Assembly (NCBI GenBank): GCA_045642005.1
Contig: JAZUHZ010000251.1
Span: 1-41,911 of the forward strand
From: Candidatus Avilachnospira sp.
GTDB lineage: Bacteria > Bacillota > Clostridia > Lachnospirales > Lachnospiraceae
DNA length: 41,911 nt
Direction of reading: 5' to 3'
This document shows, piece after piece, positions 6,192-26,032 of this stretch; position 1 is the first letter of the stretch, and the number at the start of each line of letters is the position of its first letter. The position numbers were made by a program, and so were the translations under genes. Below the pieces are notes generated by a model. That model was given only the letters and a program-made list of their open reading frames with translations, did not search any database and had not been told where the DNA came from.

Positions 6192-6341
6192 CATTGTCTT
6201 GAGCATCAATTGGAACATGCGGCGGCGCATCCTCGTGCTTCAGTCGTGTGAGGAGCGGTCCTGACAGGAAAAACGGCAGTATCAATTTTCCGGGAAAGCG
6301 CGTATAATATCTGGGAATATATCATTTCCGGGGCAACCGGT

Positions 6342-6446
6342 ATGAAGAACAGAAAAGAGAAATTTTCAGAGAAACAGGCTGTGATGGAGCTTGCGGATGA
6401 CGGGGCCTTCTCCATAGAAAAAACAGCGGCCCCGGACATACAGTAA
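6342..6446 (+). pseudogene. Relic of a class-B leader peptide gene (MKNRKEKFSEKQAVMELADDG..), truncated before the GG site
   Basis: The 34-codon ORF has an N-terminus and upstream region (6265-6341, including GCGCGTATAATA) homologous to the cassettes at 14566-14660 and 17223-17300. The SD is degraded and the QVTGG motif is lost. Confidence 0.5.
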
Positions 6447-6478
6447 GGCGGTCATCAGAAGAAAGGAATATGGACAAC

Positions 6479-6985
6479 ATGAAAAAAACGCTGGCTGTCC
6501 TGCTGCCCGTACTGATTCTTTGCGGTATTCTTAACGGTTGTGAGAATCAATCCATTTCCCACAGCGAAAAACTTTCCATTGTAATAACGGTGTCCCCGGT
6601 ATATGACTGGGTGCGGAACATCCTCGGTGAAAAAGCCGCGGACACCGATCTCACACTGCTTCCTGAGAAAGGCGCGGATCTGTACGGTTTTCAGCCCACG
6701 GAAGATGACATTCTCCGGATCTCTCAATGTGATCTCCTGGTTTATGCCGGCGGGGAAGCGGATCAATGGGTGGAAGACGCGCTGAAAAAAGCGGGCAGTC
6801 CGGAGATCATCGTGATCCGTCTGCTGGATGTTCTCGAAGCCCCGGTCATGGAAGGCGGAGAAGACGAGCATGTCTGGCTTTCTCCGAAAAACGCGGAGGT
6901 GCTGATCCCGTATCTCTGCGATGCCCTGATCGAGGCGGATCCGAAAAATGCAGCGTTTTACACGGAAAACGCTGAAGGCTTATGA
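6479..6985 (+). pseudogene. Truncated ZnuA/TroA-type metal ABC substrate-binding lipoprotein (N-terminal half only)
   Basis: Signal peptide with lipobox LNGC. Cluster-9 SBP-like motifs (GADLYGFQPT, DEHVWLSP). The ORF stops at about 170 aa, whereas this family is usually about 300 aa. No permease or ATPase genes are adjacent. Confidence 0.5.
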
Positions 6986-8744: not shown

Positions 8745-9098
8745 TCAGTATGTCATCAGGAAAGCAAGGATCCCGTGGGTGGGAACGTAGCCCTCGATAT
8801 CATAAATCTTCCGGCCGGAAGGATATTCACAGATGCCGGAGGAATCGACCTGAAGAAGGTTTCGCCCGGAAGGGTATTCCTTCAGATACCTGCCGTCATA
8901 CTGTCTGAGATGTCTCCCGGACGGGTATTCGTTGATATAGTCCCCGTCAAACTGATATATGATTCTTCCGGAGGGATAGTCTCTCACGGCTCTGCTGTCG
9001 ATATGGTACTCTGTCCGGCTGGACGGATAGTCTTTGATGGAGTCACTGTCAATTTCCATGATCCTTCTTCCGGAAGGATACTCTCTGATATATCCCAT
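8745..9098 (-). CDS. Small repeat protein: six exact 17-residue repeats centred on (E/D)YPSGR, plus a hydrophobic C-terminal tail
   Basis: The Tyr of YPS(G/S)R falls at residues 7, 24, 41, 58, 75 and 92. RBS is AGAGGTGA. Confidence 0.7.
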   Translation of the reverse strand: MGYIREYPSGRRIMEIDSDSIKDYPSSRTEYHIDSRAVRDYPSGRIIYQFDGDYINEYPSGRHLRQYDGRYLKEYPSGRNLLQVDSSGICEYPSGRKIYDIEGYVPTHGILAFLMTY

Positions 9099-9163: not shown

Positions 9164-9568
9164 TTAAATCTTTACGACCCGGTTTCTCCTCGTATCGCCG
9201 GATTCTGACGATGAATCCTCAATATACTTCGCGTTTACATATTTTGTTGCTCTTGCAAATCCAAGTTTTTTTACCGTGCCGGCTTTTACCATTTTACCAA
9301 GTACGGATTCAACGGTCGTAGGGCTGATATCCGGCAGGAATCCGCAGATCTCTGATTTGGACACAGGAAGTATGCTGTTTAATACCGTCTGTTCTATTCT
9401 CTCAGTTTTGCTGAGCCTTTTCCCGTTTATCTGCATATATATTATCGGATAATGTGCAGATTTGCAATTGATATCTGCACATTTATCTTCCTGCATTGTG
9501 CAGATAAATCGCACCGGAGTCACCCCGCTTCTGTCAGGAAAAGGCGGTTGGCTCATGGGTAAAGTCAC
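9164..9568 (-). CDS. Putative winged-helix DNA-binding protein. The true start is probably internal (Met at 9436 or 9496).
   Basis: The C-terminal 90 aa resemble a wHTH (SKSEICGFLPDISPTTVESVLGKMVKAGTVKKLG). The TGCAGAT repeats and inverted repeat at about 9458-9510 look like an operator lying inside the nominal 5-prime end of the ORF. Confidence 0.5.
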   Translation of the reverse strand: MTLPMSQPPFPDRSGVTPVRFICTMQEDKCADINCKSAHYPIIYMQINGKRLSKTERIEQTVLNSILPVSKSEICGFLPDISPTTVESVLGKMVKAGTVKKLGFARATKYVNAKYIEDSSSESGDTRRNRVVKI

Positions 9569-9638
9569 GGGCCAACCTAAAGATTCTTACGCGGCATATG
9601 TCACGCTGCGGTGAATCCGCAGGTTTTCGGCCACTTCC

Positions 9639-10064
9639 TTAATCAAACGGATCCCAATACTCATTGCTGAATGTCACACGTTTCTGTTCGAAGATTTCCT
9701 CACGGACTTTAAGCATCAGCTCCTTTGCACCCGCAAGGCCGCTCCTGATCAGGTTTTCCGTTCCCCTGCTGTCATAGGTATGCTCCTCCGGGTCAAAATT
9801 CCGGATGTAGTCAAAGGCCGTGTCAAGGATCTCCAGAGCACTGTCCTGACCTGTTAAGCCGCCCCACCCGATGTCAATGCAGAAGCCGGCATGGTTTTCG
9901 GTCTGCGCCCGGTAAAGGGAATCCGCCGCCTGAGCTGCCTCCGGGACATCGGCAAGCTTTGTCCGAAGATCGAGCGGGAAGTACATCACCCGCCGGTCTG
10001 TCTGCGCGATGTCCTCCACGGAGAACTCCTTCCATATGTTTAAGTTTTTAATGTCAATTTTCAC
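9639..10064 (-). CDS. Hypothetical 141-aa protein
   Basis: ORF with a GTG start preceded by GGAGGTG. No family recognised. Confidence 0.55.
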   Translation of the reverse strand: MKIDIKNLNIWKEFSVEDIAQTDRRVMYFPLDLRTKLADVPEAAQAADSLYRAQTENHAGFCIDIGWGGLTGQDSALEILDTAFDYIRNFDPEEHTYDSRGTENLIRSGLAGAKELMLKVREEIFEQKRVTFSNEYWDPFD

Positions 10065-10223: not shown

Positions 10224-11477
10224 TCAGGCGGCGAAGATCTCCTCCAGATCTTTTCTGAGGAGGGTCTTCTTCTCCATGAGAGCCGTGGCCACACGGTCAA
10301 GGAGAGCGCGGTGCTCGCAGAGCATGCGGCGGGTCTCGTTATAGTAACGCTGCATCTCCAGGGAGATCACGGTGTCCTTGCGGTCCATGGCATGGGTTCC
10401 CATGTTGGAGCTTCTTTCAAACTCTCCGAAACCGTAGGTGCAGTAGTTGTCGGCAAAACGCTCCACAATGTTAAAGGCTCTGTTCAGATCGCTGTTGGCG
10501 CCCACGTCGGTGGTGCCGAAGGTGATCTCCGTAGCAGCTTTTCCGCCGAGAATGGAGAGGACGCGGTTTTCCATGAACTTCTTGGAACCGAAATAATTCC
10601 TGTTCTGTGTATAGGAGGTGATGCCTCCCACGTCACCGTTATAGGTGGCCACGGAAACGAGATTCACGCTTCCCGGTTCCAGGAGCTCGTTCACCACGGC
10701 ATGTCCCGCCTCGTGCCAGGCAACCGTTTTCAGAAACTCCTCATCATACCGGAAGCTTTCGGGCGCACCGAAGATCACGCGGAGGCAGGCTCTCACCATA
10801 TCGTCCATGCCGATGCTTTCCTTATTTTCATATCCCGCATAGATGCCGGCCTCATTCACCACGGTCTCCAGCTCAGCGCAGCTTCTTCCGTCAAGGATGT
10901 GCGCGATCTGATCGGCATCAATGTCCGAGACGAAATTCTTCTGTCCGAGGTAATGGCGGATGATCTCCGCGGCGTCCTCCACCTTCGGGGCGCAGATCTC
11001 CACGGTCTTGTCGAAACGGCCGGCGCGGAGAAGAGACGGCGGCAGACAGTCCTCCTCATTGGCGGTGGCGAGCACGAACACTTCGCTGTCTCTGCAGTCA
11101 TCGATGCAGGACTGGATGGTGACAAACTCTTCCGCATTTCTGTGGCGGTTGTCCTCATTGGCAAACTTGTCAATGTCATCCAGGAAAATGATGGACGGCG
11201 CCTGTTCCTTTGCTTTCTGGAAGGTCTCGCGGATCTCGTTGACAAAAGCGCCGTCGGGCTTGTCCTTGCGGCAGGTGAATGCCGGGCGGCCGCTGGCTTT
11301 TACGATGCACTTTGCCATGGTGGTCTTGCCGAGGCCGGGCTCTCCGATCAGAAGAAGTCCCTTCGGGGTGTTCACGCCGAGAGCGCGGTACTTGTCCGGG
11401 TGCTTCATGATGTCGCAGAGACGCTCAAACTCCTTTTTTTCTTCCTCATATCCGATGATAGGATCAAATTCATTCAT
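10224..11477 (-). CDS. Soluble FtsH-like protein: an AAA+ module plus an M41 zinc-peptidase domain, with no transmembrane anchor
   Basis: Walker A GEPGLGKTT. Walker B IIFLDDID (DD in place of the usual DE). SRH ATANEEDCLPPSLLRAGRFD. Zinc site WHEAGHAV. Only 417 aa, with no N-terminal TM segments. RBS is AAGGGGA. Confidence 0.8.
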   Translation of the reverse strand: MNEFDPIIGYEEEKKEFERLCDIMKHPDKYRALGVNTPKGLLLIGEPGLGKTTMAKCIVKASGRPAFTCRKDKPDGAFVNEIRETFQKAKEQAPSIIFLDDIDKFANEDNRHRNAEEFVTIQSCIDDCRDSEVFVLATANEEDCLPPSLLRAGRFDKTVEICAPKVEDAAEIIRHYLGQKNFVSDIDADQIAHILDGRSCAELETVVNEAGIYAGYENKESIGMDDMVRACLRVIFGAPESFRYDEEFLKTVAWHEAGHAVVNELLEPGSVNLVSVATYNGDVGGITSYTQNRNYFGSKKFMENRVLSILGGKAATEITFGTTDVGANSDLNRAFNIVERFADNYCTYGFGEFERSSNMGTHAMDRKDTVISLEMQRYYNETRRMLCEHRALLDRVATALMEKKTLLRKDLEEIFAA

Positions 11478-11626: not shown

Positions 11627-11965
11627 TCAGCAGGCTTTGCGGAAATGGCTGTCCTTTTCATACCAGGCGCCGGTGGCCTTGTCCAGACAGATATCCAGCT
11701 CATCCTCATCTTCCAGAAGGTGAAGGATTCTTCCCACTGCCTTTCTCTCCAGGGAAAGCTCATAGGGGTACTCCTCCAGTCTGTCAATGATCTCCTGCTG
11801 TCTCAGGTGCTTTCTGCTGTTGGTGTTGTCTTTGAGGATCTGGTACACATAGAGTGTTGCCAGTGTCTTTCTGCCGTTCGCTTTTCTGAGGCCTCCTTCC
11901 TCCTCATCGTCCTCATCGTAGTCCATGAAACCTGTTGCATTTACTTTGGTATTGCTCATCATCAT
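11627..11965 (-). CDS. Short wHTH protein resembling the N-terminal DNA-binding domain of WYL-type (BrxR/CapW/PafBC-like) regulators, with no WYL domain
   Basis: TLATLYVYQILKDNTNSRKHLRQQEIIDRLEEYPYELSLERKAVGRILHLL matches the typical HTH_11-like N-terminus. It has an acidic N-terminal tail. A GGAGG RBS precedes three consecutive ATG codons. Confidence 0.6.
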   Translation of the reverse strand: MMMSNTKVNATGFMDYDEDDEEEGGLRKANGRKTLATLYVYQILKDNTNSRKHLRQQEIIDRLEEYPYELSLERKAVGRILHLLEDEDELDICLDKATGAWYEKDSHFRKAC

Positions 11966-12560: not shown

Positions 12561-12794
12561 ATGGAAAACTACGAAGATACTGAAAACGAGCTTACCGCAG
12601 AAGCACTTCAGAGTGTGAGCGGCAGCGCATCACCGTATGACGAAATGGCAGCGCCCGGGTCGAGGAAACTGATGACAGATTACCCGGATAATCAGATAAT
12701 CATCGGAGGGCCGCTGAAAAAGAACATCGAAAACCAGGCAAAGCTGGCTGCAACAACGGCAGATTTTATAACCAGAGTCGGGTACAGGGAATAG
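12561..12794 (+). CDS. Small ORF with a degenerate leader-like N-terminus (..ELTAEALQSVSGS..). It overlaps the 12692-13015 gene antisense.
   Basis: Good RBS (GAGGAGATCAATC ATG). The 103-nt convergent overlap with the minus-strand precursor makes it uncertain that both are coding. Confidence 0.35.
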   Translation: MENYEDTENELTAEALQSVSGSASPYDEMAAPGSRKLMTDYPDNQIIIGGPLKKNIENQAKLAATTADFITRVGYRE

Positions 12795-13015
12795 CCTCGG
12801 ATCCTTCTCACCTGCTGCTGGAGAGAATCGCCGTGATCGACAAGGATCCGACTTTTATCGGTACAAAGAGTCTTGAGGTATTTGTGAAGCCCCGTACAGC
12901 CTTGGTTGTCTCCGCCCGCGACCTGCGCAAGCTCTTCCTCGGTCAGCTCAGTGAGCTTCTCGTTCATTGCTTCATATTCGATTTTCAGTTCGTTCAGTTC
13001 TTCTTTCGTTTTCAT
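12692..13015 (-). CDS. Class-A double-glycine leader peptide precursor (leader MKTKEELNELKIEYEAMNEKLTELTEEELAQVAGG, 72-aa C-terminal region)
   Basis: The leader is near-identical in pattern to the 17497, 18077 and 18425 paralogs. The core has two Cys and a hydrophobic tail. Confidence 0.7.
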   Translation of the reverse strand: MKTKEELNELKIEYEAMNEKLTELTEEELAQVAGGDNQGCTGLHKYLKTLCTDKSRILVDHGDSLQQQVRRIRGYSLYPTLVIKSAVVAASFAWFSMFFFSGPPMII

Positions 13016-13049
13016 ACCGATACAGAAACAACGGAAGGTTTCTCTTCCG

Positions 13050-13151
13050 TCATCCTCGAGTCAGGACTCTCTTTTTTTCGGCACATGAGCACAGCAGAAA
13101 CGCTGCCACAAGTACCGTCAGAACAATCGTTATCCAATTTCTTGCTGTCAT
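13050..13151 (-). CDS. Possible 33-aa membrane or lipoprotein-signal-like peptide (MTARNWITIVLTVLVAAFLLCSCAEKKRVLTRG)
   Basis: Below the ORF-track cutoff and read by hand. An AAAGGA RBS lies 7 nt upstream. It sits directly upstream of, and on the same strand as, the 13015 precursor. Confidence 0.3.
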   Translation of the reverse strand: MTARNWITIVLTVLVAAFLLCSCAEKKRVLTRG

Positions 13152-13266
13152 GAATTATCCTTTTCGATCACCTGTCCTGCCGGGGCTTCCTGTCGCTGTT
13201 TTTCTGCCAGATTCCAGAAGTTCTCTTTCGAATGCCTTCCATCCCCTAAAACGGCGCTGTGATACA

Positions 13267-13863
13267 CTAGAAACACCCGCCTGCCAGATAGGCGTTTTTC
13301 ATAACAGGTCCGTTACTTTTCCCCTCGATATTCAGCTCATACAGCTCGAAATCTGTCCAGCCGGTATCCGGGTAAAAGAGATTCAGGGTGTAGAGTTTCT
13401 GAAATCCGAAGGACTCGTACAGCCGGTTTGCGGGAAGGTTTCCTTTTAAGACATCGAGCCTCAAGGCTTTTCCTCCGTTTTCTCCTGCCGTATCGATCGC
13501 ATACTGCACCATTTCTTTTGCAAGACCTCTCCGTCCGTATGACGGGAGCACGGCGAGCATGTGGATCACAAAGACTTCTTCTTTTTCCGCCCTCGTCGGC
13601 CAGTCAAACCGGCTGTATCCCTCGTTGCATTCGTGATTTAAGGCCATGACTGAAACGATCCTTCCGTCAAGCTTTCCTGTAACCAGTTCTCCCCTTTCCA
13701 GAAGCTCCCTTAGTTCCCGGGGATCCGGATACACGTCTTTCTCCCAGCGGGGATGGTAGTCTCTCCCGGCAAAGCCGTCGATCACCTCGTAATAGAAGGA
13801 CCTGATCTGTTCGTATTCTTCTTTTTCCGCTCTTTTGATCATCATGTGTCTTGATCTTCCCAT
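13267..13863 (-). CDS. GNAT-family N-acetyltransferase
   Basis: Acetyl-CoA binding motif (LAVLPSYGRRGLAKEMV) and the overall GNAT pattern. The start may be the Met at 13845. Confidence 0.8.
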   Translation of the reverse strand: MGRSRHMMIKRAEKEEYEQIRSFYYEVIDGFAGRDYHPRWEKDVYPDPRELRELLERGELVTGKLDGRIVSVMALNHECNEGYSRFDWPTRAEKEEVFVIHMLAVLPSYGRRGLAKEMVQYAIDTAGENGGKALRLDVLKGNLPANRLYESFGFQKLYTLNLFYPDTGWTDFELYELNIEGKSNGPVMKNAYLAGGCF

Positions 13864-14098
13864 CCATCCTCAGGCCATCAAACCCTTCATCAAAAATGGC
13901 GCAGGATACTCCGCCCTCTACAGGGCGGGGAGGAATGCGCCCCTCCTTTCGGTAATAATCGTCCTTTGGGGCTCGAGAAATCTCAGCTTCTTATGCCTCG
14001 TCCTCCTCTGTATTTTTCTTCTGCGGTCAATTTTCAAAAAGCCATACAAACCCGGGTTCACAGTCAGGCCCATTAATTAAGGGCCAGTCCTGTTTTCC

Positions 14099-14368
14099 TT
14101 AGCTGAACTTCTTTGCCAGCGTATTCACTTTTGTCATCAGCTCCTTTGAAAACAGGCCCTGATTCTTCTCCACAACGGCGGAATACTTTTTTGCGTTCGG
14201 GATCTGTGCCATCAGCGTTGCCACATTGGCATTTTTGATAATGCCTGCCAGCTCCTTCATGTCATCCGGAAGCTTTCCGCTCTTCTCAAGCCCGTCAAAT
14301 TCCTTCTTTGCCATGTCAAGCACACTTCCGAGCTCATTTCCTGCACTCAGTTTGTCCAATAATCCCAT
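14099..14368 (-). CDS. Hypothetical 89-aa helical protein
   Basis: ORF with an AAAGGA RBS. No family recognised. Confidence 0.55.
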   Translation of the reverse strand: MGLLDKLSAGNELGSVLDMAKKEFDGLEKSGKLPDDMKELAGIIKNANVATLMAQIPNAKKYSAVVEKNQGLFSKELMTKVNTLAKKFS

Positions 14369-14491
14369 AATTTCTGTCCTTTCATCGAATATTTTCTGTT
14401 CTGCACCGCCCTGTCATATGATGGGCGGTCAAACATATTATACATACCTTCCCCGAAAAAGGATACCGTACTTTTCCATGAATGCCATTCC

Positions 14492-14608
14492 CCTCATTTG
14501 CCAAATTAAATACAGCCCTTACCCTCCATTTAATTTGGCAAATGAGGGTGGTGTGATGATGTGGCCCGTGAAAAAGCAGTATCCTTTTCCGGCAGCCGGG
14601 CGTATAAT
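14492..14608 (+). promoter_or_regulatory. Peptide-gene promoter cassette, copy 1: palindrome with 20-nt arms (14492-14511 / 14528-14547, 16-nt centre), a conserved block, and -10 TATAAT (14603-14608)
   Basis: The arm CCTCATTTGCCAAATTAAAT is perfectly complementary to ATTTAATTTGGCAAATGAGG. The downstream block GTGAAAAAGCAGTATCCTTTTCCG..GCCGGGCGTATAATA is shared with copy 2 and, in degraded form, with 6265-6312. The -35 is poor (TATCCT). Confidence 0.65.
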
Positions 14609-14643
14609 ACCTAAGGAATCGATAATTCTGGAGGAAAACCGGT

Positions 14644-14994
14644 ATGAAAAACAGAAAAGAGAAATTCGCAGGCGAACAGGCCATGATGGAGCTTTCTGAT
14701 GACGATCTGGGTCAGGTAACGGGAGGCACTGATATCACACTTGAAAAGGCAGGCGTCAGGCTGGGTGAAACCGGAGTCGTGCTCTGCCCAACAGATACAC
14801 GCAGCTTTACACCCACAATTTCGCCCACAATTGAACCTACAATTGAACCTGACGCTACGGAAAACCCGGGAATTTCAGGCGGAACACTCAATTCTTTACC
14901 ATATACTGAACCTACGAGCCAATCCAATCGCTATTTTGTGTATTATGAACCAGACCCGATAGAAAAGTTCTCTACTAATGTCTCTAAACAGTAA
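14644..14994 (+). CDS. Class-B double-glycine leader peptide precursor (leader MKNRKEKFAGEQAMMELSDDDLGQVTGG, 88-aa Pro/Thr-rich core)
   Basis: A GGAGGAA RBS and the conserved cassette lie upstream. The core contains TPTISPTIEPTIEP repeats and one Cys. Confidence 0.75.
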   Translation: MKNRKEKFAGEQAMMELSDDDLGQVTGGTDITLEKAGVRLGETGVVLCPTDTRSFTPTISPTIEPTIEPDATENPGISGGTLNSLPYTEPTSQSNRYFVYYEPDPIEKFSTNVSKQ

Positions 14995-15107
14995 GAACAA
15001 ATAATGATCCTGATCAGGTAACGGGAGGCATTGGGCCTTGCCTCACCGGTGAGAGAAACTATGAACTGATCAGTCCCGGCGCCAACGTGATATCCGATCC
15101 CGGGTGA
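14988..15107 (+). pseudogene. Startless leader remnant (..NNDPDQVTGG IGPCLTGERNYELISPGANVISDPG)
   Basis: The frame opens after the TAA at 14985-14987 and has no ATG, GTG or TTG before the DPDQVTGG motif. The DNA GATCAGGTAACGGGAGGC is identical to the cleavage-site DNA of the preceding gene. Confidence 0.4.
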
Positions 15108-15182
15108 AATGGAATCGGCAGCAGCTATGATGAGGGATGGGCACATAGACAGAGGCGCGTGAACGCACAGCAGGGAGTAACT

Positions 15183-17063
15183 ATGGAAATCGTAAAAACT
15201 TCTAATGAAAATAATGATCTGATTTTCAGATTATCAGGACAGATTGATGCTGTGACCAGTGAGGACCTTGAAAACAGTATCCGTCAAACGGATTTTACGG
15301 GAAAGAACATTATCTTCGACTTTGAAAATGTACCCTACATTTCATCGTCCGGTCTGAGGCAGCTGCTGATTGCAAAAAAGAAAGCCGGGGAAGCGTCTTT
15401 TAAGCTTATCAATACCAATGAAACGGTTGAAGATGTTCTGAAAATGACCGGCATGGATTTGGTTTTTGATATCGAATCCGCACAAAAACCGGACCGTTCC
15501 TTCACCGGCAAAACCATAAAAGATCTGCTGGAGATCAAGTTCAGAGAGTGTCCTGAAAAGACATTTCTGCTCAGTGAAAATGCCGCCTACACATGGAGAG
15601 AGATTTACTATGCCGTTCAGATCATTGCTTTTGATCTGTATCGGACCGGTGTGCGCAAGGGTACACATGTAGGAATCTGCTCCACCAACTCGATCAACTG
15701 GGTTCTGGCTTTTTTTGCGGTTCAGAAGCTGGGAGGTATTGCCTGCCTTCTGAATTTCGGTTATACGGCATCGGAGCTTCGCAGAGTGCTTAACAGCGGA
15801 GATATCACGTATTTTATTTACGGTGATATTCCTTCCATTGCCGCAGAGGAAGAAAGCTTTCTGGAAGATCTTCCGGCCGGCACGCAGGTAAAGCATGTCT
15901 ACTCTGTCAAATCCTCTGTGAATTTTAAGAGCCGCCTGCAGGAGTATCCGTATATCGAAGGACTGTTTTCGGAAAAATCGGATGCTGATGATGCCTCTGT
16001 GATGATTTTCACGTCCGGTTCCTCCGGGACACCCAAGGGCGTCATCTTGTCGTCGTTCAATATTTTCAACAGCGCCGAGGCGATGAATCAGGTTGAAAAA
16101 CTGACGGACAAGGACCGCCTTTGTCTGATCACGCCTCTCTTCCATATTATGGGGCTCGCTCTGAGTTTATTCGAATGTGCGCTCTGCAATTGTACGGTAT
16201 TCTTCCCGCATGACATCCGCACCAATACGCTCCTGTCTGATATTGATGCCTACAAATGCACCGCCATCAAAAGTGTACCCACAATGATGATCGCCATTAC
16301 CAACAATCCCACGTTTCGTATAGACAGGGTCGCCACCATCAGGACATGCGTGCTGGGAGGCGCACCGGCTACGGAAGCGCAGCTTCTGCGTATGCAGAAG
16401 GCGTTCCCAAACACAAAATTTTTCAATGCGTATGGTCTGAGCGAAATGGCACCGGTCTGTGTCACCGGTACGGATACGCCCATTGAACAACTGGCACATA
16501 CCTGCGGCAAACCGATTGATCATATTACGGTACAGATCCGGAACATTCTCACCGGAGAAATCTGTCCTCCCGGAGAAGACGGCGAATTGATCGTCAAAGG
16601 ATCCAACATGATGGCATGTTACTATAAACTGGATCTTGATGATCAGATCATTGACAGTGAGGGATATATCCATACGGGAGATATCGGAAATATTGATTCT
16701 GAAGGTCAGATTCACATTACAGGACGTCTGAAAGAACTGATCATCCGGGGCGGTGAGAATATCGCTCCCAAAGAAATTGCCGAACCGATTACAAATTTTG
16801 AAGGGGTTCAGGACGTAAAGGTGGTTGGCGTACCGCACGATTTCTTTGGTGAAGTTCCCTGTGCCTGTATTGTTATGAAACCCGGGGTTTGTTTTGACGA
16901 GGCGAAAATGAGAGAATACCTCGCCAGGGTTCTGACAAAGCAAAAGCTGCCGGAATACTTCTACCTCTTTAAGGAATTCCCCATGCTTGCCTCAGGAAAA
17001 ACAGATTCCGTACGGATCAAAAAACTCGCGGTGGAAAAGTTTGGCGCGAATCTTTGCGGATAG
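15183..17063 (+). CDS. Fusion protein: an N-terminal STAS (SpoIIAA-like anti-sigma-antagonist) domain and an adenylate-forming ANL enzyme (acyl-CoA synthetase / fatty-acyl-AMP ligase-like)
   Basis: STAS region: DFENVPYISSSGLRQLLIAKKKAGE...LKMTGMDLVFDI, with the conserved Ser retained. ANL motifs: IFTSGSSGTPKGV (A3), YGLSE (A5), TGD (A7), GRLKELIIRGGENIAPKEI (A8), and a C-terminal Lys in SGKTD (A10). An AGGGAG RBS precedes the ATG at 15183, and the ORF is open from a GTG at 15159. Confidence 0.85.
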   Translation: MEIVKTSNENNDLIFRLSGQIDAVTSEDLENSIRQTDFTGKNIIFDFENVPYISSSGLRQLLIAKKKAGEASFKLINTNETVEDVLKMTGMDLVFDIESAQKPDRSFTGKTIKDLLEIKFRECPEKTFLLSENAAYTWREIYYAVQIIAFDLYRTGVRKGTHVGICSTNSINWVLAFFAVQKLGGIACLLNFGYTASELRRVLNSGDITYFIYGDIPSIAAEEESFLEDLPAGTQVKHVYSVKSSVNFKSRLQEYPYIEGLFSEKSDADDASVMIFTSGSSGTPKGVILSSFNIFNSAEAMNQVEKLTDKDRLCLITPLFHIMGLALSLFECALCNCTVFFPHDIRTNTLLSDIDAYKCTAIKSVPTMMIAITNNPTFRIDRVATIRTCVLGGAPATEAQLLRMQKAFPNTKFFNAYGLSEMAPVCVTGTDTPIEQLAHTCGKPIDHITVQIRNILTGEICPPGEDGELIVKGSNMMACYYKLDLDDQIIDSEGYIHTGDIGNIDSEGQIHITGRLKELIIRGGENIAPKEIAEPITNFEGVQDVKVVGVPHDFFGEVPCACIVMKPGVCFDEAKMREYLARVLTKQKLPEYFYLFKEFPMLASGKTDSVRIKKLAVEKFGANLCG

Positions 17064-17123
17064 AACGGAGGTGCTTTCACAACGCGTAAGGATATCACAG
17101 GCTGAAGGTAACAGATCCGGCTT

Positions 17124-17263
17124 GCCAGAGTAAATGCAGGTTGGCTCTTGGGATGATTTTGCCAGATTAAATGCAGGGTAAGGGCTGCATTTACTTTGGC
17201 AAATGAGGATGATGATACAGCCGTGAAAAAGCAGTATCCTTTTCCGACTGCCGGGCGTATAAT
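17124..17263 (+). promoter_or_regulatory. Peptide-gene promoter cassette, copy 2: an extra half-site (17124-17142), a palindrome (17158-17203) whose centre is inverted relative to copy 1, a conserved block, and -10 TATAAT (17258-17263)
   Basis: TTTGCCAGATTAAATGCAG GGTAAGGG CTGCATTTACTTTGGCAAA. The reverse complement of copy 1 matches this copy at 44 of 50 positions, against about 36 of 50 in direct orientation. The downstream flank is co-oriented with copy 1. Confidence 0.65.
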
Positions 17264-17296
17264 ATTTATGAGTCGATAATTCTGGAGGAACGGAGT

Positions 17297-17464
17297 ATGA
17301 AGCTCAACAAAAAGGAACTAATCACTGAGAACCAGGCTATGATGGAGCTTTCAGATGATGATCTGGATCAGGTAACGGGTGGATGTGAGCCCGCCAGTTC
17401 TCGCGTCAAGCCCGAATTTGATTCTCCGGACGGATTTGTGCCGATCGAGTCGCAGCCCTCTTAA
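17297..17464 (+). CDS. Class-B double-glycine leader peptide precursor (MKLNKKELITENQAMMELSDDDLDQVTGG, 26-aa core CEPASSRVKPEFDSPDGFVPIESQPS)
   Basis: 55 codons, below the ORF-track cutoff and read by hand. A GGAGGAA RBS and the conserved cassette lie upstream. Confidence 0.7.
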   Translation: MKLNKKELITENQAMMELSDDDLDQVTGGCEPASSRVKPEFDSPDGFVPIESQPS

Positions 17465-17484
17465 GGGAGAGCCCGGTTTACTCG

Positions 17485-17760
17485 ATGGAATTCTCTATGA
17501 AAACGAAAGAAGAACTGATCGAAATGAAAATGGAATATGAAACAATGAACGAAAAACTTGCCGAGTTGTCAGATGATGAGTTAGAACAGGTAACCGGTGG
17601 TCAGTACGTTAATCACGATTATCCATCGTTAAAGGCGTTGGATAATCTTAACAGACAGGCAAAATCAAAAAGCAGACTTATAGAACAAATATCCACTGGC
17701 ACAATCATCAATTACGAGAAGGATACTCCGATTTCCATTGATCCAAAATCTGTCAAGTAA
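17485..17760 (+). CDS. Class-A double-glycine leader peptide precursor (..MKTKEELIEMKMEYETMNEKLAELSDDELEQVTGG, 52-aa core)
   Basis: The leader is conserved with its paralogs. The start is either the ATG at 17485 or the MKTKEEL Met at 17497. Confidence 0.75.
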   Translation: MEFSMKTKEELIEMKMEYETMNEKLAELSDDELEQVTGGQYVNHDYPSLKALDNLNRQAKSKSRLIEQISTGTIINYEKDTPISIDPKSVK

Positions 17761-17814
17761 ACACTAAGCAGCGATATTTTTCCGAAAATCACTAAGCTTA
17801 TTGAAGGGCAGGTT

Positions 17815-18051
17815 GTGAAAAAGCTTGCGAATGACGAACTGGAGCAGGTTTCCGGCGGTATGAAATACGAGGGACTCATTGCTGAGCATATCAGGGAAGC
17901 AGGGAATTTTATTGTTGATGGTGTTTCTATTAAGAGGCTCCGTGAACCTGCAACAGAATCGACTGCGCATGCAGGGTTCATCGATAACAGATCTACAAAG
18001 AAACCGGAACCAGAGGTCTATGTATTCGCATCTGTCACCACAGACGGCTGA
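17815..18051 (+). CDS. Short-leader double-glycine peptide precursor (MKKLANDELEQVSGG, 63-aa core)
   Basis: GTG start. The ELEQVSGG motif is present. The core is unrelated to its neighbours. Confidence 0.55.
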   Translation: MKKLANDELEQVSGGMKYEGLIAEHIREAGNFIVDGVSIKRLREPATESTAHAGFIDNRSTKKPEPEVYVFASVTTDG

Positions 18052-18076
18052 TTGAACGGAAAGGAATAATTCTGCC

Positions 18077-18394
18077 ATGAAAACAAAGGAAGAACTGAAC
18101 AGACTGAAAACCGAATATGCGGCAATGAACGAAAAGCTTGCTGAACTGTCAGATAATGAGCTGGAACAGGTAACCGGAGGTACCGCCCGTCCGTTGTTTC
18201 AGGCGTTGAACCAGTTACTCCAGCGACCAATCGAAATACCGAACTCCATATTGCAAAATACGACTTCACAAAACACTGCGAATTCTGGCACCGAAGGATA
18301 TTCACGGCAGCAAGTTAATTCACTTCCCGTACAGTATTACCAAAAAGAAAACTCTGCGCCTGACATTTCGGACATCATCGCTACAGAGGAGTAA
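18077..18394 (+). CDS. Class-A double-glycine leader peptide precursor (MKTKEELNRLKTEYAAMNEKLAELSDNELEQVTGG, 70-aa Gln/Asn/Ser-rich core)
   Basis: GGAAAGGAA RBS. The leader is conserved with its paralogs. Confidence 0.75.
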   Translation: MKTKEELNRLKTEYAAMNEKLAELSDNELEQVTGGTARPLFQALNQLLQRPIEIPNSILQNTTSQNTANSGTEGYSRQQVNSLPVQYYQKENSAPDISDIIATEE

Positions 18395-18424
18395 GTACCA
18401 CAGCCTGATAAGGTGTTATTATCG

Positions 18425-18577
18425 ATGAAGACCAAAGAAGAGCTTAACGAACTGAAAATCGAATATGAATCTCTGAGCAGAAAGTTTGCTGAATTAACGG
18501 AGGGGGAGCTCGAGCTGAGGTCCGCCGTTATTCCGGCGAGCCTCCTGTTCTGTTTCAAAAAGCCCACCTTCCGATGA
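18425..18577 (+). pseudogene. Degenerate class-A leader gene (MKTKEELNELKIEYESLSRKFAELTEGELELRS..) that has lost the QVTGG site
   Basis: 50 codons read by hand. The first 30 aa align with class-A leaders, after which the sequence diverges with no GG. Confidence 0.45.
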
Positions 18578-18694
18578 GCTTTCATGTTGTCAGGGATCTT
18601 TCCTGTCCTGTTTTCTGCACTTTTCGAGCATTTCCTTCTGCAGTACTCTTCAGAGCTTCGGTGATCGCAAGGAAGTATGGATATGAAGGACCGG

Positions 18695-23729: not shown

Positions 23730-23867
23730 CTTACCCGTGGTATTGCCCTCCGTTCCATTGTTACCGAGATTATATCACTATGGTGATAGTTTTACAAGAG
23801 GAATGGTCTCCGTTATGATACTCATTCCGCAGGCACCTGTCCGCTTGCCAAAAAGCGGTAATATCGT

Positions 23868-24560
23868 TCAAATTTCCTTTTTCCCGGGTCCCTGCCCGAA
23901 TGTTTTCCGATAGATCCGGTAAAAAGTGGAATAATCCGTGAAGCCGCATTTTTCTGCGGCTTCATTTGCATTCATCCCGTCCTGTATCAGCAGAAAGGCA
24001 CGGTTGATGCGTTTTTCGCAGATGTATCTGTGCGGCGTGAAGCCTGTGATATCCCGGAAGCGCCGGGTAAGGCTGGAGCGTGAAATAAAAAACCGGCGGC
24101 ATAACATGTCAACGGAAAGAGTCTCTGCCAGATTGTCCTGAATATATTCGATCACGCGTGTTACAACAGGATCAACATCATCAAATTCACGGCTTCCTCC
24201 GATAAGCCCCGGCTTTTCAAAATATTTTCCGGCTCCAATGGTTTCGGCCGCTTCCGTGGAGATCCACAGGACATACCGCTTATACGGGATCTTTTCCGAG
24301 ATCAGCGGCTGATGGATCTCAAAAGCCGGGATGATCAGCACATCCCCCGGGCGCATCCGGTAACTTTTTCCTTCGATGACATACCGGAGATCTCCGCTCA
24401 GAAACACGATCACTTTGTGAAAATCATGGTAATGCGGGGCAATCTTTTCTTTCTCCAGACTGTCCAGAAAAAAGGCCCGGAATCCCTCCTTCAGATATCC
24501 CCGCTTTACGACATCGTCAGGATTGATCGCGCTTTGATTCAGAGTCGTATTGTTTTCCAT
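23868..24560 (-). CDS. AraC-family transcriptional regulator with an N-terminal cupin domain
   Basis: Cupin region (HYHDFHKVIVFLSGDLRYVIEGKSYRMRPGDVLIIP) plus a C-terminal AraC HTH (FTPHRYICEKRINRAFLLIQ..FTDYSTFYRIYRKTFG). Confidence 0.85.
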   Translation of the reverse strand: MENNTTLNQSAINPDDVVKRGYLKEGFRAFFLDSLEKEKIAPHYHDFHKVIVFLSGDLRYVIEGKSYRMRPGDVLIIPAFEIHQPLISEKIPYKRYVLWISTEAAETIGAGKYFEKPGLIGGSREFDDVDPVVTRVIEYIQDNLAETLSVDMLCRRFFISRSSLTRRFRDITGFTPHRYICEKRINRAFLLIQDGMNANEAAEKCGFTDYSTFYRIYRKTFGQGPGKKEI

Positions 24561-24724
24561 TCCGCGTCTTTCTCCCTTCTTCCTTCCTCTCCTTTTCCCT
24601 CTTCTCTATGATTATACGCTACAAAACGCAAAGATTAAAGCATAAACTGCAATAAAACATTTCATTATGTACTGATATAATCAAGAGCAAAGGTACTTAT
24701 ATTCTTTCTATAGGGAGGTAGGAT

Positions 24725-25972
24725 ATGGAAAAACAATCGATCAGGAAGAACTACCGGTTTCTTGGCATCATGACAGGCGCCATGGTGCTTGGATGCGTGA
24801 CCGGCGCCGCGGCACCCGGCTTTGCTTCTGCCATTTCTCCGCTTGGAACCGTGTTCATCAACATGATGTTCTGTATCGTGGTTCCGCTGGTATTTTCATC
24901 GATCGCAGGTTCCATCGCAAGCATGAAAAGCCGCAAACGGGCCGGAAAGATCCTCGGAACCACCCTGGTCATATTTGTGGCCACCGGTGCTATTGCGGCT
25001 GCCATCATGTTCGTGCTCATGAAGATCTTTCCGCCGGTACTGAGTGCCTGGGAAACCGTGGAAGCAGAGGAAATCGGCGATTACGCCACCATGAGCGAAC
25101 TGATCGTCAATTTCTTTACGGCCGGTGATTTTGTGGGACTTCTTTCCAGAAAGGCCATGCTGCCGCTGATCGTTTTCTCAGTGCTCTTCGGGTTTTCCGT
25201 TAACTTAAACGGCGGTCCGGACACCCCGGTTGCGAAGTTCCTTTCCGATCTGACGAATGTGATGCTGAAATTTGTAAAAATCATCACGTATTATGCGCCG
25301 GTGGCTTTCTTTGCCATCTTCGCCGGCCTGGTGGCGGATTACGGCCCACAGCTGGTCGCCGGTTCCTACGGAAGAGCCCTTATGGTATATTATCCGCTTT
25401 GCTTTATCTATGTCTTTACTGCTTTCCCTCTCTTTGCCGCGTTTGGCGGCGGAAAGGGCGCGGCAAAGGTGATGTTCTCCCATCTCACCCGTCCCGTGGT
25501 CGTATCTCTTGGAACCTGTTCTTCTGTGGCGACCATTCCCACAAATCTGCAGGAAGCCGCGGAGACCGGCATCTCGAAAGATGTCGCAGATATGGTCATC
25601 CCGCTTGGGGCTACCATGCATATGGACGGGTCCTGCTTCTCCTGCGTATTAAAGATCGCCTTTGTTTTCGGCGTGTTCGGTCAGCAGCTTTCCTTCTCTC
25701 AGTTCCTTCCGGTCATCCTGACAGCTGTACTTTCCTCTGTGGGAATGTCCGGCGTTCCGGGCGGCGGCTATATCGGTGAATACATTATCTGCTCCATTTT
25801 CTTTGCCGATCATATGGAGATCGCCTTCCCTATCCTGGTGGCCATAGGCAACCTTATTGACCCGCCGGCAACCATGATCAACGCTTCGGGCGACTATGTG
25901 GTTTCCTATATCGTATCCCGATATGCGGACGGAAAAGACTGGCTCCAGAAACAGCTTCATAAGAAGGTGTGA
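24725..25972 (+). CDS. Dicarboxylate/amino acid:cation symporter (DAACS family)
   Basis: Polytopic protein with DAACS signatures (SSVATIPTNLQEAAE..IPLGATMHMDGS; GVPGGG; DPPATMINASGD). It is divergent from the AraC gene. Confidence 0.8.
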   Translation: MEKQSIRKNYRFLGIMTGAMVLGCVTGAAAPGFASAISPLGTVFINMMFCIVVPLVFSSIAGSIASMKSRKRAGKILGTTLVIFVATGAIAAAIMFVLMKIFPPVLSAWETVEAEEIGDYATMSELIVNFFTAGDFVGLLSRKAMLPLIVFSVLFGFSVNLNGGPDTPVAKFLSDLTNVMLKFVKIITYYAPVAFFAIFAGLVADYGPQLVAGSYGRALMVYYPLCFIYVFTAFPLFAAFGGGKGAAKVMFSHLTRPVVVSLGTCSSVATIPTNLQEAAETGISKDVADMVIPLGATMHMDGSCFSCVLKIAFVFGVFGQQLSFSQFLPVILTAVLSSVGMSGVPGGGYIGEYIICSIFFADHMEIAFPILVAIGNLIDPPATMINASGDYVVSYIVSRYADGKDWLQKQLHKKV

Positions 25973-26007
25973 TTCCTGTACTTATCCGGAACCAACTGCA
26001 AAAAAAT

Positions 26008-26032
26008 CTCCCGCATCGTTTCCGCTGCGGGA
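26008..26032. terminator. Hairpin after the symporter gene (TCCCGCA / TGCGGGA)
   Basis: 7-bp stem. An A-run lies upstream and there is no T-run downstream on the plus strand, so its function and orientation are uncertain. Confidence 0.3.

What the first reader, a model, noticed from the sequence alone, without database searches (positions are those of the whole stretch)
12561..18577. Multi-paralog double-glycine-leader peptide locus with long, unrelated cores and no canonical maturation or export genes
At least eight small ORFs share a leader that ends in (E/D)L(E/D/G/A)QV(T/S/A)GG.
- Class A leader, MKTKEELNxLKxEYxxMNEKLxELxDxELEQVTGG: 12692-13015 (minus strand), 17485-17760, 18077-18394, and a degenerate copy at 18425-18577.
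- Class B leader, MKNRKEKFxxEQAMMELSDDDLxQVTGG: 14644-14994, 17297-17464, and a relic at 6342-6446.
- Minimal leader, MKKLANDELEQVSGG: 17815-18051.
- Startless ..DPDQVTGG remnant: 14988-15107.

The DNA around the cleavage site (GAnCAGGTAACnGGnGG) is conserved even between leader classes. The regions after GG are 26-88 aa long, mutually unrelated, mostly hydrophilic and Cys-poor. They do not look like class II bacteriocins or lanthipeptide cores.

Double-glycine leaders are established signals for C39-peptidase ABC exporters. The window contains no such exporter, no immunity gene, and no LanM, radical-SAM or YcaO enzyme. The only enzymes embedded in the locus are a STAS-ANL fusion (15183-17063) and a GNAT (13267-13863).

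I infer one of two things. The locus may be a new acylated or otherwise modified RiPP-like system, since GNAT- and acyl-AMP-ligase-dependent lipidation of ribosomal peptides has precedent. Alternatively it may be a diversifying family of secreted signalling or effector peptides.
Basis: partly seen in the sequence, partly recalled or inferred. Interest (0 to 1): 0.85.

Follow-up and report, generated by a model that had tools for sequence, protein, structure and literature searches.

The report
Hypervariable double-glycine-leader peptide gene family
This locus holds a cluster of small genes that share an old, well-conserved export-type leader but carry unrelated tails, some built from pieces of ordinary proteins such as flagellin; it belongs to a very large, undescribed family in gut Firmicutes, and the neighbouring enzymes are bystanders.

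Summary
The window has six intact and three decayed small ORFs with leaders ending in Q-V-(T/S/A)-G-G, and no exporter or RiPP enzyme.

The acylated-RiPP reading does not hold.
- The STAS-ANL protein belongs to a large conserved family whose usual neighbours are partner-switching, MatE and ABC genes.
- The closest copies of this peptide array (95-96% nt identity) lie in two other genomic contexts, without the ANL.
- GNAT and ANL genes are near almost none of 77 related loci.

The class-A leader (MKTKEELNALKEEVETLNKKLAELSEEELEQVTGG) defines a very large family in gut Bacillota. It forms arrays of up to 13 genes, with at least 21 copies in one MAG and 171 unrelated core clusters. The leader is under protein-level purifying selection (pN/pS 0.28) and carries the V-4, L-7 and L-12 residues that C39 peptidases recognise. 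Cores are kept open, are mostly acidic and hydrophilic, and turn over by leader-leader recombination and module transposition.

A subset of cores are fragments of known proteins. These include flagellin residues 3-41 and a FlgK N-terminus (both in this window), and elsewhere LysM, cold-shock, GGGtGRT and SusC/RagA plug pieces.

Most likely these are unmodified cargoes of an unlinked PCAT exporter, with unknown extracellular roles. I rate it a new variant of a known kind.

The parts
6266..6446 (+). Relic of a class-B unit. The promoter-like box and a leader ORF (MKNRKEKFSEKQAVMELADDG...) remain, but the GG motif and the palindrome are lost. It sits just upstream of a truncated ZnuA gene.
   Evidence: Repeat families D2 and D6; three-way alignment; ORF list; ZnuA covers 135 of 263 profile positions.
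12561..12794 (+). Possible extra peptide gene (77 aa) with ...ELTAEALQSVSGS. It has a good GAGGAG ribosome-binding site and converges on and overlaps the tail of the next gene. Unverified.
   Evidence: no Pfam hit.
12692..13015 (-). Class-A precursor gene (leader MKTKEELNELKIEYEAMNEKLTELTEEELAQVAGG). The 72-aa core has no recognisable relative, and its hydrophobic tail may be read-through.
   Evidence: inverted repeats I1-I3; the weak glutaredoxin hit was not reproduced.
13267..13863 (-). GNAT acetyltransferase, judged a bystander.
   Evidence: Pfam Acetyltransf_1, E=1.5e-15. Close relatives lie near leaders in only one of 77 other loci.
14491..14643 (+). Regulatory unit 1: a perfect 21-nt palindrome, a TATAAT box and a GGAGGAA ribosome-binding site.
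   Evidence: Repeats I5, D6, D9 and D10. The motif is found 3 times against 0.01 expected.
14644..14994 (+). Class-B precursor gene (116 aa) with a Pro/Thr-rich acidic core.
14988..15107 (+). Startless remnant of a leader 3' end (..NNDPDQVTGG) with a 25-aa tail. It is a rearrangement scar.
   Evidence: Repeat family D4; sequence.
15159..17063 (+). STAS-acyl-AMP ligase fusion (the ATG at 15183 is the likely start). It is a conserved enzyme unrelated to the peptides.
   Evidence: Pfam STAS, AMP-binding and AMP-binding_C; family size and contexts; absent next to the orthologous array in L094.
17122..17296 (+). Regulatory unit 2: palindrome, TATAAT box and ribosome-binding site. It heads the five-gene array. 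The mobile module's left edge lies at about 17183-17217.
17297..17464 (+). Class-B precursor gene (55 aa). The same core occurs elsewhere behind a class-A leader (P0019), which shows leader swapping.
17497..17760 (+). Class-A precursor gene. Its 52-aa core mimics flagellin residues 3-41, the N-terminal D0 and start of D1.
   Evidence: Pfam Flagellin_N positions 1-42, E=4.7e-4. 14 of the 15 best PDB hits are flagellins in N-terminal register. Ungapped alignment to Hag 3-41 with z about 6.5.
17815..18051 (+). Minimal-leader precursor gene (VKKLANDELEQVSGG). The 63-aa core starts with Met and is an orphan.
   Evidence: No true homologue among 1.84 billion cluster representatives. Identical core in L094.
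18077..18394 (+). Class-A precursor gene. Its 70-aa core carries a FlgK/rod-type N-terminal motif (NTANSGTEGYSRQQVN).
   Evidence: TIGR02492 flgK_ends positions 18-46, E=4.6e-5. A relative that differs widely outside the shared motifs (P0012) hits the same model at 1.5e-5 and also FlgB.
18425..18577 (+). Truncated class-A leader. The breakpoint is near 18522, and an intact 70-aa orthologue exists in L094.
18591..18605 (+). Terminator-like hairpin at the end of the array.
   Evidence: consensus match only.

Best explanation
The locus is one chromosomal site of a very large, fast-turning-over family of double-glycine-leader (GG) peptide genes found in gut Bacillota.

In the window, two promoter units with a shared palindromic operator drive (a) one class-B gene and (b) a five-gene array. 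A further class-A gene lies on the opposite strand.

Each gene is translated into a 55-116-aa precursor. The helical leader presents V-4, L-7, L-12 and the GG motif to the C39 peptidase domain of a PCAT-type ABC exporter encoded elsewhere in the genome. That exporter cuts after GG and exports the cargo.

The cargoes are mostly acidic, hydrophilic and probably unmodified. They are kept as open reading frames but change quickly, through unequal recombination between leaders, transposition of promoter-leader modules, and truncation or fusion at the core. Some cargoes are pieces of ordinary proteins; here these are a flagellin N-terminus and a FlgK N-terminus.

Their role is extracellular: competition, interference or signalling between bacteria. 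It is not the pore-forming action of classic class II bacteriocins.

The STAS-ANL and GNAT genes take no part.

Shown: the gene anatomy, the family, selection on the leader, kept-open cores, the rearrangements, and non-conservation of the neighbours. Inferred: cleavage, export by an unlinked PCAT, lack of modification, and function.
For: Leader and recognition motif:
- Invariant or near-invariant residues are G-1, G-2, V-4, L-7, L-12 and L-15. These are the residues shown to dock in LahT150 (PMC6363468).
- TIGR01847 passes its cutoff for three peptides.

Family size:
- 99 protein clusters.
- At least 107 confirmed stretches (79 distinct loci kept) in GTDB genomes of Oscillospiraceae, Lachnospiraceae, Acutalibacteraceae, Anaerovoracaceae and Erysipelotrichaceae.
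- 200 leader ORFs in 77 loci, with arrays of up to 13 genes and at least 21 copies in one MAG.

Evidence that the genes are real:
- A Shine-Dalgarno-like motif lies upstream of 87% of genes, against 11% at random positions.
- Leader pN/pS is 0.28 with pS about 0.6.
- The in-frame core stays open for a median of 35.5 codons, against 17.5 and 6 in the other two frames (p about 1e-11 and 1e-27).

Core diversity:
- 230 unique cores fall into 171 clusters.
- 54% lack Cys, 69% are net negative, median GRAVY is -0.52, and 2% have a TM-like stretch.

Turnover:
- L094 (95% nt identity) has an extra gene, and the window copy shows a leader-leader deletion.
- L093 carries the promoter and two genes at another site, next to an IS91/Y2 transposase and an integrase, with a new C-terminus created at the junction.
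- Core pN/pS between the window and L094 is about 1.2, from 20 nonsynonymous and 5 synonymous changes.

No linked enzymes or exporters were found in 877 kb of flanks.

Precedents:
- One promiscuous PCAT protease processes nine diverse LahA peptides (PMC6363468).
- N-terminal leader motifs set PCAT selectivity in the pneumococcal rtg locus (PMC7018657).
Against: - No PCAT or C39 gene was seen in the window or in any fetched flank, so export and cleavage are inferred only.
- 34 of 77 arrays lie within 500 nt of a contig end and only 12 have at least 5 kb on both sides. Linked genes could therefore be hidden by assembly breaks, and conversely the genomes may lack a PCAT altogether.
- The N-terminal 20 residues of the leader are more conserved than C39 docking alone requires. 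This could point to another partner, such as a remote modifying enzyme.
- 19% of core clusters have at least 4 Cys and could be modified.
- A core pN/pS near 1 rests on only 25 substitutions and is also compatible with little constraint.
Confidence: 0.6

Rival explanations
1. A prochlorosin-like RiPP family. The conserved 35-aa leader, including its N-terminal helix, recruits one promiscuous modifying enzyme encoded elsewhere (for example a radical-SAM/SPASM enzyme, an epimerase or a LanM). That enzyme tailors many dispersed, hypervariable cores before PCAT export.
For: - The leader is conserved well beyond the C39 docking region and is under purifying selection.
- The precursors are dispersed and multi-copy, with no linked enzymes, as for prochlorosins (PMC10783134).
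- 19% of core clusters have at least 4 Cys.
- L088, a relative, has a separate Nif11-type precursor next to rSAM-SPASM genes.
Against: - 54% of core clusters, and three of the six window cores, have no Cys.
- No residue or motif is shared across cores (mean column identity 5%).
- Many cores are recognisable folded mini-domains (LysM, zinc ribbons, C2H2) or protein fragments rather than typical RiPP cores.
- No modifying enzyme was found in 877 kb of flanks.
Confidence: 0.15
2. The STAS-ANL, alone or with the GNAT, activates a fatty or other acid and acylates the peptides, giving a new lipidated RiPP class.
For: - The ANL sits between two peptide units and could be co-transcribed with the 14644 gene.
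- In L088 a 71%-identical ANL also has a GG-type peptide gene 68 nt upstream, though with an unrelated leader.
- The window's ANL gave BLAST hits (22% identity) to NRPS-type adenylation proteins beside a 10-gene array in L030 and its near-identical counterpart in L029.
Against: - STAS-ANL is a big conserved family (592 hits at E<=1e-30) with partner-switching, MatE, ABC or NRPS neighbours and no peptide genes in L089-L092.
- The orthologous array in L094 and the module in L093 are not beside it.
- None of 77 leader loci has a STAS-ANL, and one has close GNAT relatives.
- No acceptor residue is shared among the cores.
Confidence: 0.05
3. The cores are mostly disposable. The selected unit is the promoter-leader module itself, either as a mobile or selfish sequence or because the leader is the active product. 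The tails are whatever DNA the module lands next to.
For: - The module moves between sites and next to an IS91-type transposase, and the junction creates a new tail.
- Core pN/pS is about 1.2.
- The window holds truncated copies and relics.
- One window core has no relative anywhere.
- Fragments of unrelated proteins serve as cores.
Against: - Cores stay open far longer than the other frames do.
- Several core families are kept across distant genomes with conserved motifs: the LysM...MSGDEFMKWW..., SusC-like NDPLFIVDG, and FlgK-like EGYSRQQVN families.
- The leader has the full C39 cleavage signature, which makes sense only if something downstream is released.
- The leader is absent from phage, plasmid and viral collections.
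Confidence: 0.1

Closest known systems
GG (double-glycine) peptides exported by peptidase-containing ABC transporters (PCATs). Examples are LahA1-9/LahT of Lachnospiraceae C6A11, the pneumococcal rtg GG peptides/RtgAB, and CtA/PCAT1.
   Same: - The leader ends in GG and has hydrophobic residues at -4, -7 and -12.
- Several co-regulated precursors carry diverse cargoes.
- Cargoes of 50-90 aa have no known function (CtA, rtg peptides).
- In rtg, the N-terminal part of the leader can confer transporter selectivity.
   Different: - No transporter is linked here or in any related locus fetched.
- The leader is a distinct 35-aa family, not Nif11-type or ComC/Blp-like.
- Copy number and core diversity are far higher.
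- Cargoes include fragments of housekeeping and foreign proteins.
Prochlorosins (Nif11-leader lanthipeptide precursors of marine picocyanobacteria, served by one ProcM)
   Same: - There are tens of precursor genes per genome, dispersed away from any enzyme.
- The leader is conserved and the core is hypervariable.
- The biological function is unknown.
   Different: - The leader family and the phylum differ.
- Most cores here lack the Cys and Ser/Thr pattern needed for lanthionine rings.
- No LanM is in evidence.
Class II (unmodified) bacteriocins of Gram-positive bacteria
   Same: - They have a GG-type leader (TIGR01847 passes its cutoff for three peptides).
- The genes are small and arranged in tandem.
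- NCBI names one family member simply 'bacteriocin'.
   Different: - The cores are acidic and hydrophilic, with almost no membrane-active character.
- No adjacent immunity, PCAT or accessory genes were found.
- Pfam Bacteriocin_IIc scores below threshold.
Polymorphic toxin / cassette systems, in which a conserved N-terminal trafficking part is joined to swappable C-terminal modules
   Same: A conserved N-terminal targeting module recombines with many alternative C-terminal parts, and truncated or orphan copies accumulate nearby.
   Different: These are peptides of tens of residues, not large toxins. No toxin domains or immunity genes are present.

Membership tests
Double-glycine-leader PCAT substrates (GG peptides) | N-terminal leader of about 15-35 aa ending in GG (or GA/GS) | tested here: met
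   Six intact window ORFs end their leader in Q-V-(T/S/A)-G-G. 167 family members have a canonical 35-aa leader.
Double-glycine-leader PCAT substrates (GG peptides) | Hydrophobic residues at -4, -7 and -12 (and -15) that dock in the C39 domain | tested here: met
   V32, L24 and L21 are invariant and L29 is nearly invariant in alignment A1; these are positions -4, -12, -15 and -7. The requirement is shown for LahT150 in PMC6363468.
Double-glycine-leader PCAT substrates (GG peptides) | Match to the curated leader model TIGR01847 above its cutoff | tested here: inconclusive
   Three of seven peptides pass (16.1-17.8 bits against a cutoff of 15.7). The others score 14.8 or nothing.
Double-glycine-leader PCAT substrates (GG peptides) | A cognate C39-peptidase ABC transporter | tested here: not met
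   None in the 41.9-kb window or in 877 kb around 77 related loci. The rest of the genomes could not be searched, so absence from the genome is untested.
Double-glycine-leader PCAT substrates (GG peptides) | Cleavage after GG coupled to export | not testable with these tools
   Needs peptidomics or an in-vitro C39 assay.
Class II unmodified bacteriocins | Small cationic, amphiphilic or hydrophobic mature peptide | tested here: not met
   Four of the six window cores are net negative and five have negative GRAVY. Family-wide, 69% are net negative, median GRAVY is -0.52 and 2% have a TM-like stretch.
Class II unmodified bacteriocins | Adjacent immunity gene and transporter/accessory genes | tested here: not met
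   No conserved neighbour family. The only candidate is an unverified 33-aa hydrophobic ORF at 13050-13151(-).
Class II unmodified bacteriocins | Match to a known precursor family (for example Pfam Bacteriocin_IIc) | tested here: not met
   Best score is 18.4 bits against a cutoff of 27.1. NCBIfam bacteriocin and lantibiotic models are all below cutoff. The precomputed PF28158 'CTB' hit is only weak.
RiPPs tailored by a cluster-encoded enzyme (lanthipeptide, sacti-/ranthipeptide, YcaO, or GNAT/ANL lipidation) | A modifying enzyme that co-occurs with the precursors | tested here: not met
   No LanM, rSAM or YcaO gene in the window. ANL and GNAT adjacency is not conserved.
RiPPs tailored by a cluster-encoded enzyme (lanthipeptide, sacti-/ranthipeptide, YcaO, or GNAT/ANL lipidation) | Cores share the residues that the chemistry needs (for example Cys with Ser/Thr) | tested here: not met
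   Three of the six window cores and 54% of core clusters have no Cys, and there is no shared motif.
Prochlorosin-type architecture | Many dispersed precursors with a conserved leader and a hypervariable core | tested here: met
Prochlorosin-type architecture | A Nif11-type leader and a single promiscuous LanM in the genome | tested here: not met
   The leader has no Nif11 or NHLP match. Whether a LanM exists elsewhere in the genome could not be tested.

The most novel reading that the evidence does not exclude
The family works as a natural library of secreted interfering peptides. An export leader is fused to short, conserved interface segments copied from other proteins, including proteins of competitors. 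Examples are the D0 termini of flagellin and the FlgK N-terminus (both in this window's operon), the plug motif of Bacteroidota SusC/RagA transporters encoded in monoderm Bacillota, and LysM and NlpC/P60 motifs. Once released, these fragments would act as dominant-negative mimics. They might poison flagellar filament or hook-junction assembly, jam SusC-type importers, or bind cell wall. New specificities would arise by capturing further gene fragments.
Probability: 0.13. Interest if true: 0.88.

Novelty: new variant of a known kind. Interest (0 to 1): 0.62.

Why it matters
Gut Clostridia would hold a very large pool of exported peptides, with dozens of genes per genome and hundreds of unrelated cargoes. 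Present bacteriocin and RiPP miners rely on linked transporter or enzyme genes and would largely miss it (PMC12648112).

The family is also a clean natural example of how a conserved targeting module acquires new cargo by recombination and by capture of gene fragments.

If the fragment cargoes act by mimicry, for example against flagella or against SusC-type transporters of Bacteroidota, that would be a new mode of interbacterial interference. It could be tested directly with synthetic peptides.

Tried and rejected
- Concatenated cores. I joined all window cores with X linkers into one homology query, and it returned nothing, not even the window's own peptides. I take this as a technical failure, and it wasted one search.
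- STAS-ANL in metagenomes. The scan gave only distant hits.
- Leader in mobile-element collections. The leader was absent from plasmids, phages and IMG/VR, so there is no evidence that the family is phage- or plasmid-borne.
- Core of 17815-18051. The exhaustive search gave one spurious, repeat-inflated hit, so this core is an orphan.
- Glutaredoxin and the 12692-13015 core. The weak similarity was not reproduced and I dropped it.
- PF28158. I first guessed that this domain on the FlgK-like peptides was a flagellar domain. It is the 'CTB' bacteriocin family and matches only weakly.
- Two L007 cores as consecutive flagellin pieces. I thought two adjacent cores might encode neighbouring segments of a flagellin. 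The second core shows no similarity, so I rejected this.
- DNA-level recombination site at the cleavage point. Codons there vary freely across the family, so I rejected it.
- MatE-HATPase_c_2 as a linked exporter. Homologues occur near leaders in 3 of 77 loci. That is too weak to claim and mechanistically unlikely.
- ABC proteins near arrays. Those in L032, L020 and L038 are, respectively, a DUF1854-type heterodimeric exporter with no C39 domain detected, an ABC-F protein and UvrA. None is a PCAT.

Full report
**1. What is in the window**

Three intact genes carry the class-A leader MKTKEELNxLKxEYxxMNEKLxELxDxELEQVTGG:
- 12692-13015 on the minus strand.
- 17485-17760, where the ATG at 17497 is the likely start.
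- 18077-18394.

A fourth class-A copy, 18425-18577, stops matching its intact orthologue at about 18522, inside the leader.

Two intact genes carry the class-B leader (14644-14994 and 17297-17464). One has a 15-residue minimal leader (17815-18051). There is a startless leader remnant at 14988-15107 and a relic without GG at 6342-6446.

The leader DNA forms clear repeat families. TIGR01847, the curated double-glycine leader model, passes its cutoff for three peptides.

The class-B genes also share about 150 nt upstream. This unit holds a perfect palindrome, a TATAAT box and a GGAGGAA ribosome-binding site, and it occurs at 14491-14643 and 17122-17296. A promoter-only relic lies at 6266. The region therefore reads as two regulated units plus one opposite-strand gene.

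Pfam scans of the window's likely genes found no ABC/C39 exporter, LanM, radical-SAM or YcaO gene.

**2. The family**

The class-A leader is not a local oddity.
- A protein search gave 99 clusters whose leaders are about 70-90% identical while the parts after GG are unrelated.
- A scan of one genome per species gave at least 107 confirmed stretches, of which 79 distinct loci were kept. Nearly all are in gut MAGs of Oscillospiraceae, Lachnospiraceae, Acutalibacteraceae, Anaerovoracaceae, Erysipelotrichaceae and relatives.
- In the 77 non-redundant loci I found 200 leader ORFs. 48 loci have two or more and 18 have four or more. The largest array has 13 genes in tandem (L010), and one MAG has at least 21 copies on six contigs.
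- No paper in the searchable library contains the leader sequence. One source calls a member simply 'bacteriocin'.

**3. Are these real genes, and what is selected?**

- A Shine-Dalgarno-like motif lies upstream of 87% of the leader genes, against 11% of random positions.
- Across 167 canonical leaders, synonymous sites are close to saturation (median pS 0.59-0.66) while pN is 0.15-0.18, a ratio of 0.28. The codons for V-4 and the two Gly vary freely.

So the leader is old and is conserved as a peptide, not as DNA.

The invariant or near-invariant residues are G-1, G-2, V-4, L-7, L-12 and L-15. V-4, L-7 and L-12 are the residues that sit in the hydrophobic groove of the C39 protease LahT150 and are needed for cleavage (PMC6363468).

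After GG the reading frame stays open for a median of 35.5 codons, against 17.5 and 6 codons in the other two frames from the same point (p about 1e-11 and 1e-27). The cores are therefore maintained coding sequence, not random read-through.

**4. The cores**

The 230 unique cores fall into 171 unrelated clusters. They are unlike pore-forming bacteriocins and unlike thioether RiPP cores: 54% have no Cys, 69% are net negative, median GRAVY is -0.52, and 2% have a membrane-like stretch. The six window cores fit this picture.

A subset are recognisable pieces of ordinary protein families:

| Family | Best E-value | Note |
|---|---|---|
| LysM | 1.5e-17 | |
| Cold-shock domain | 5.8e-14 | |
| GGGtGRT | 8.9e-25 | internal fragment, profile positions 217-282 of 327 |
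| C2H2 zinc finger | 1.3e-5 | various zinc ribbons also hit, all weaker (E 1e-3 to 7e-3) |
| TonB-receptor Plug | 4.6e-5 | |
| SusC/RagA (same cores as Plug) | 2.4e-12 and 6.3e-10 | specific to the SusC/RagA model |
| Flagellin C-terminus | 1.4e-4 | also z about 10 against Hag residues 263-294 |

The SusC/RagA-like cores occur in monoderm Bacillota, for example an Erysipelotrichaceae MAG. From my own knowledge, monoderm bacteria lack an outer membrane and so have no TonB-dependent receptors of their own.

In the window itself, two cores resemble flagellar proteins.
- The core of 17497-17760 aligns without gaps to flagellin residues 3-41. Pfam Flagellin_N positions 1-42 match at E=4.7e-4. 14 of the 15 best PDB hits are flagellins in the same N-terminal register.
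- The core of 18077-18394, and a relative that differs widely outside the shared motifs (P0012), both hit the FlgK N-terminal model (4.6e-5 and 1.5e-5).

The core of 17815-18051 has no true relative among 1.84 billion cluster representatives. So some cores are orphans.

**5. How the cores change**

Two metagenomic contigs carry near-identical copies of the window's array.
- L094 (95% nt identity) has the same gene order but one extra gene between the 78-aa and 105-aa genes, and an intact version of the window's truncated last copy. The window's arrangement is what an unequal crossover between two leaders would give.
- L093 has flanking genes 98% identical to window 23866-26032. There, the promoter, the class-B gene and most of the flagellin-like gene (window 17217-17705, 96% identity) sit at a different site, next to an IS91/Y2 transposase and a tyrosine recombinase. 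The junction lies inside the core and creates a new C-terminus.
- The same short core occurs behind a class-B leader in the window and a class-A leader elsewhere (P0019).
- Between the window and L094 the cores differ by 20 nonsynonymous and 5 synonymous changes, a ratio of about 1.2. These are small numbers. For the leaders the ratio is about 0.5.

**6. The neighbouring enzymes**

The STAS-ANL protein has 592 relatives at E<=1e-30 among the 8,000 candidates scored, and nearly all of the 120 listed have the same two-part architecture. The contexts I inspected contain partner-switching proteins (SpoIIE, HATPase_c_2, STAS), MatE, ABC exporters, an NRPS or an amylase, and in four of five cases no small GG-type gene. 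One 71%-identical relative (L088) does have an unrelated GG-type peptide gene just upstream.

The decisive point is that homology between L094 and the window starts at 17183, downstream of the ANL. So the same array is not next to the ANL in its closest relative.

Among 77 leader loci, none has a STAS-ANL. L029 and L030, which share the same genes here, have an NRPS-type adenylation-thiolation protein. One locus (L026) has close GNAT relatives, and L020 has only a weak GNAT hit. No neighbour family recurs in more than seven loci, and the recurrent ones are generic: ABC ATPases, histidine kinases and LRR proteins.

**7. Export**

No PCAT was found in the window or in 877 kb of flanks. The few large ABC proteins near arrays are not PCATs.

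This absence needs a caveat. 34 of 77 arrays lie within 500 nt of a contig end and only 12 have at least 5 kb on both sides, probably because the repeated leader breaks assemblies.

Remote processing has precedent. A single PCAT protease handles nine diverse LahA peptides. Prochlorosin precursors are processed by a solitary promiscuous ProcM enzyme (PMC10783134). In the pneumococcal rtg locus an N-terminal leader motif selects the transporter. The last point could also explain why the N-terminal helix is so conserved here.

**8. Verdict**

The best reading (confidence about 0.6) is a set of unmodified GG peptides that are cleaved and exported by an unlinked PCAT. They belong to a very large, rapidly diversifying family, and the ANL and GNAT genes are bystanders.

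The rivals are:
- a remote promiscuous tailoring enzyme (0.15);
- largely disposable cores attached to a selected or mobile leader module (0.10);

The most novel reading still open, at about 0.13, is that fragment-type cores act as secreted mimics of conserved interfaces in other bacteria. What makes it worth testing:
- two flagellar N-termini lie in one operon here;
- flagellin fragments recur in other genomes;
- a conserved SusC-plug-like core family, with NDPL(F/Y)I(V/I)DG kept and even duplicated in P0050, occurs in bacteria that have no outer membrane.

Against it, detection is biased towards highly conserved motifs.

I rate the finding a new variant of a known kind, with interest 0.62.

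Noticed in passing
window 2538-4379 (+) and 15159-17063 (+); L088, L089, L092: A MatE exporter fused to an RsbW/SpoIIAB-like kinase domain (HATPase_c_2) lies in the same window as the STAS-ANL, and the two also share contig L089. In L088 the ANL is followed by an HD/tyrosine-phosphatase-like protein and a MatE. In L092 it sits among SpoIIE-HATPase_c_2 and STAS genes. This suggests an acyl-AMP ligase controlled by partner switching and tied to a MATE exporter. I am not aware that such a system has been described.
   Followed up: partly
L074 5881-6604, L046 4849-5178 (-), P0057, P0050: GG-leader peptides in monoderm Bacillota have cores that match the SusC/RagA plug region of Bacteroidota (TIGR04056, E down to 2.4e-12). 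The NDPL(F/Y)I(V/I)DG motif is conserved and occurs twice in P0050.
   Followed up: partly
L093 3462-5470: An IS91/Y2-type transposase and a tyrosine recombinase lie directly beside the translocated promoter-plus-peptide module. They may be the vehicle that moves it.
   Followed up: partly
window 13050-13151 (-): A 33-aa hydrophobic ORF (MTARNWITIVLTVLVAAFLLCSC...) lies between the GNAT gene and the minus-strand class-A gene. It could be a small membrane or lipoprotein-signal peptide, or an immunity-like gene.
   Followed up: no
window 8745-9098 (-): A 117-aa ORF is built of about seven EYPSGR-containing repeats with a 51-nt period (repeat families D3 and D5). It has no family match.
   Followed up: no
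window 10224-11477 (-), with 9164-10064 (-) and 11627-11965 (-): An FtsH-like AAA plus M41 peptidase protein whose AAA domain starts at residue 41 (no room for the usual FtsH N-terminal membrane region; TM segments not checked) is flanked by small ORFs with no family match. It may be a conflict or defence module.
   Followed up: no
window 6470-6985 (+) and 32321-32905 (-): Two truncated genes: a ZnuA fragment (135 of 263 profile positions) immediately downstream of the relic leader, and a lone NRPS condensation-domain fragment. The region carries several gene remnants.
   Followed up: no
L088 15859-18708: A 99-aa precursor with a long Nif11-like leader ending in ISGG and a GCCCTCQKQCPQKMCKK core sits next to two radical-SAM/SPASM genes. 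This is a separate, conventional-looking RiPP cluster in a relative.
   Followed up: no
L016, L082: Two contigs that carry the leader family are binned as Sphaerochaetaceae (spirochaetes). This is either mis-binning or transfer outside Bacillota.
   Followed up: no
L001-L004: A PAP2-family membrane phosphatase lies within about 0.1-1.1 kb of the peptide genes in two unrelated loci. Other arrays are flanked by membrane proteins (Acyl_transf_3, TraX, YhhN). None of these recurs often enough to claim a link.
   Followed up: partly
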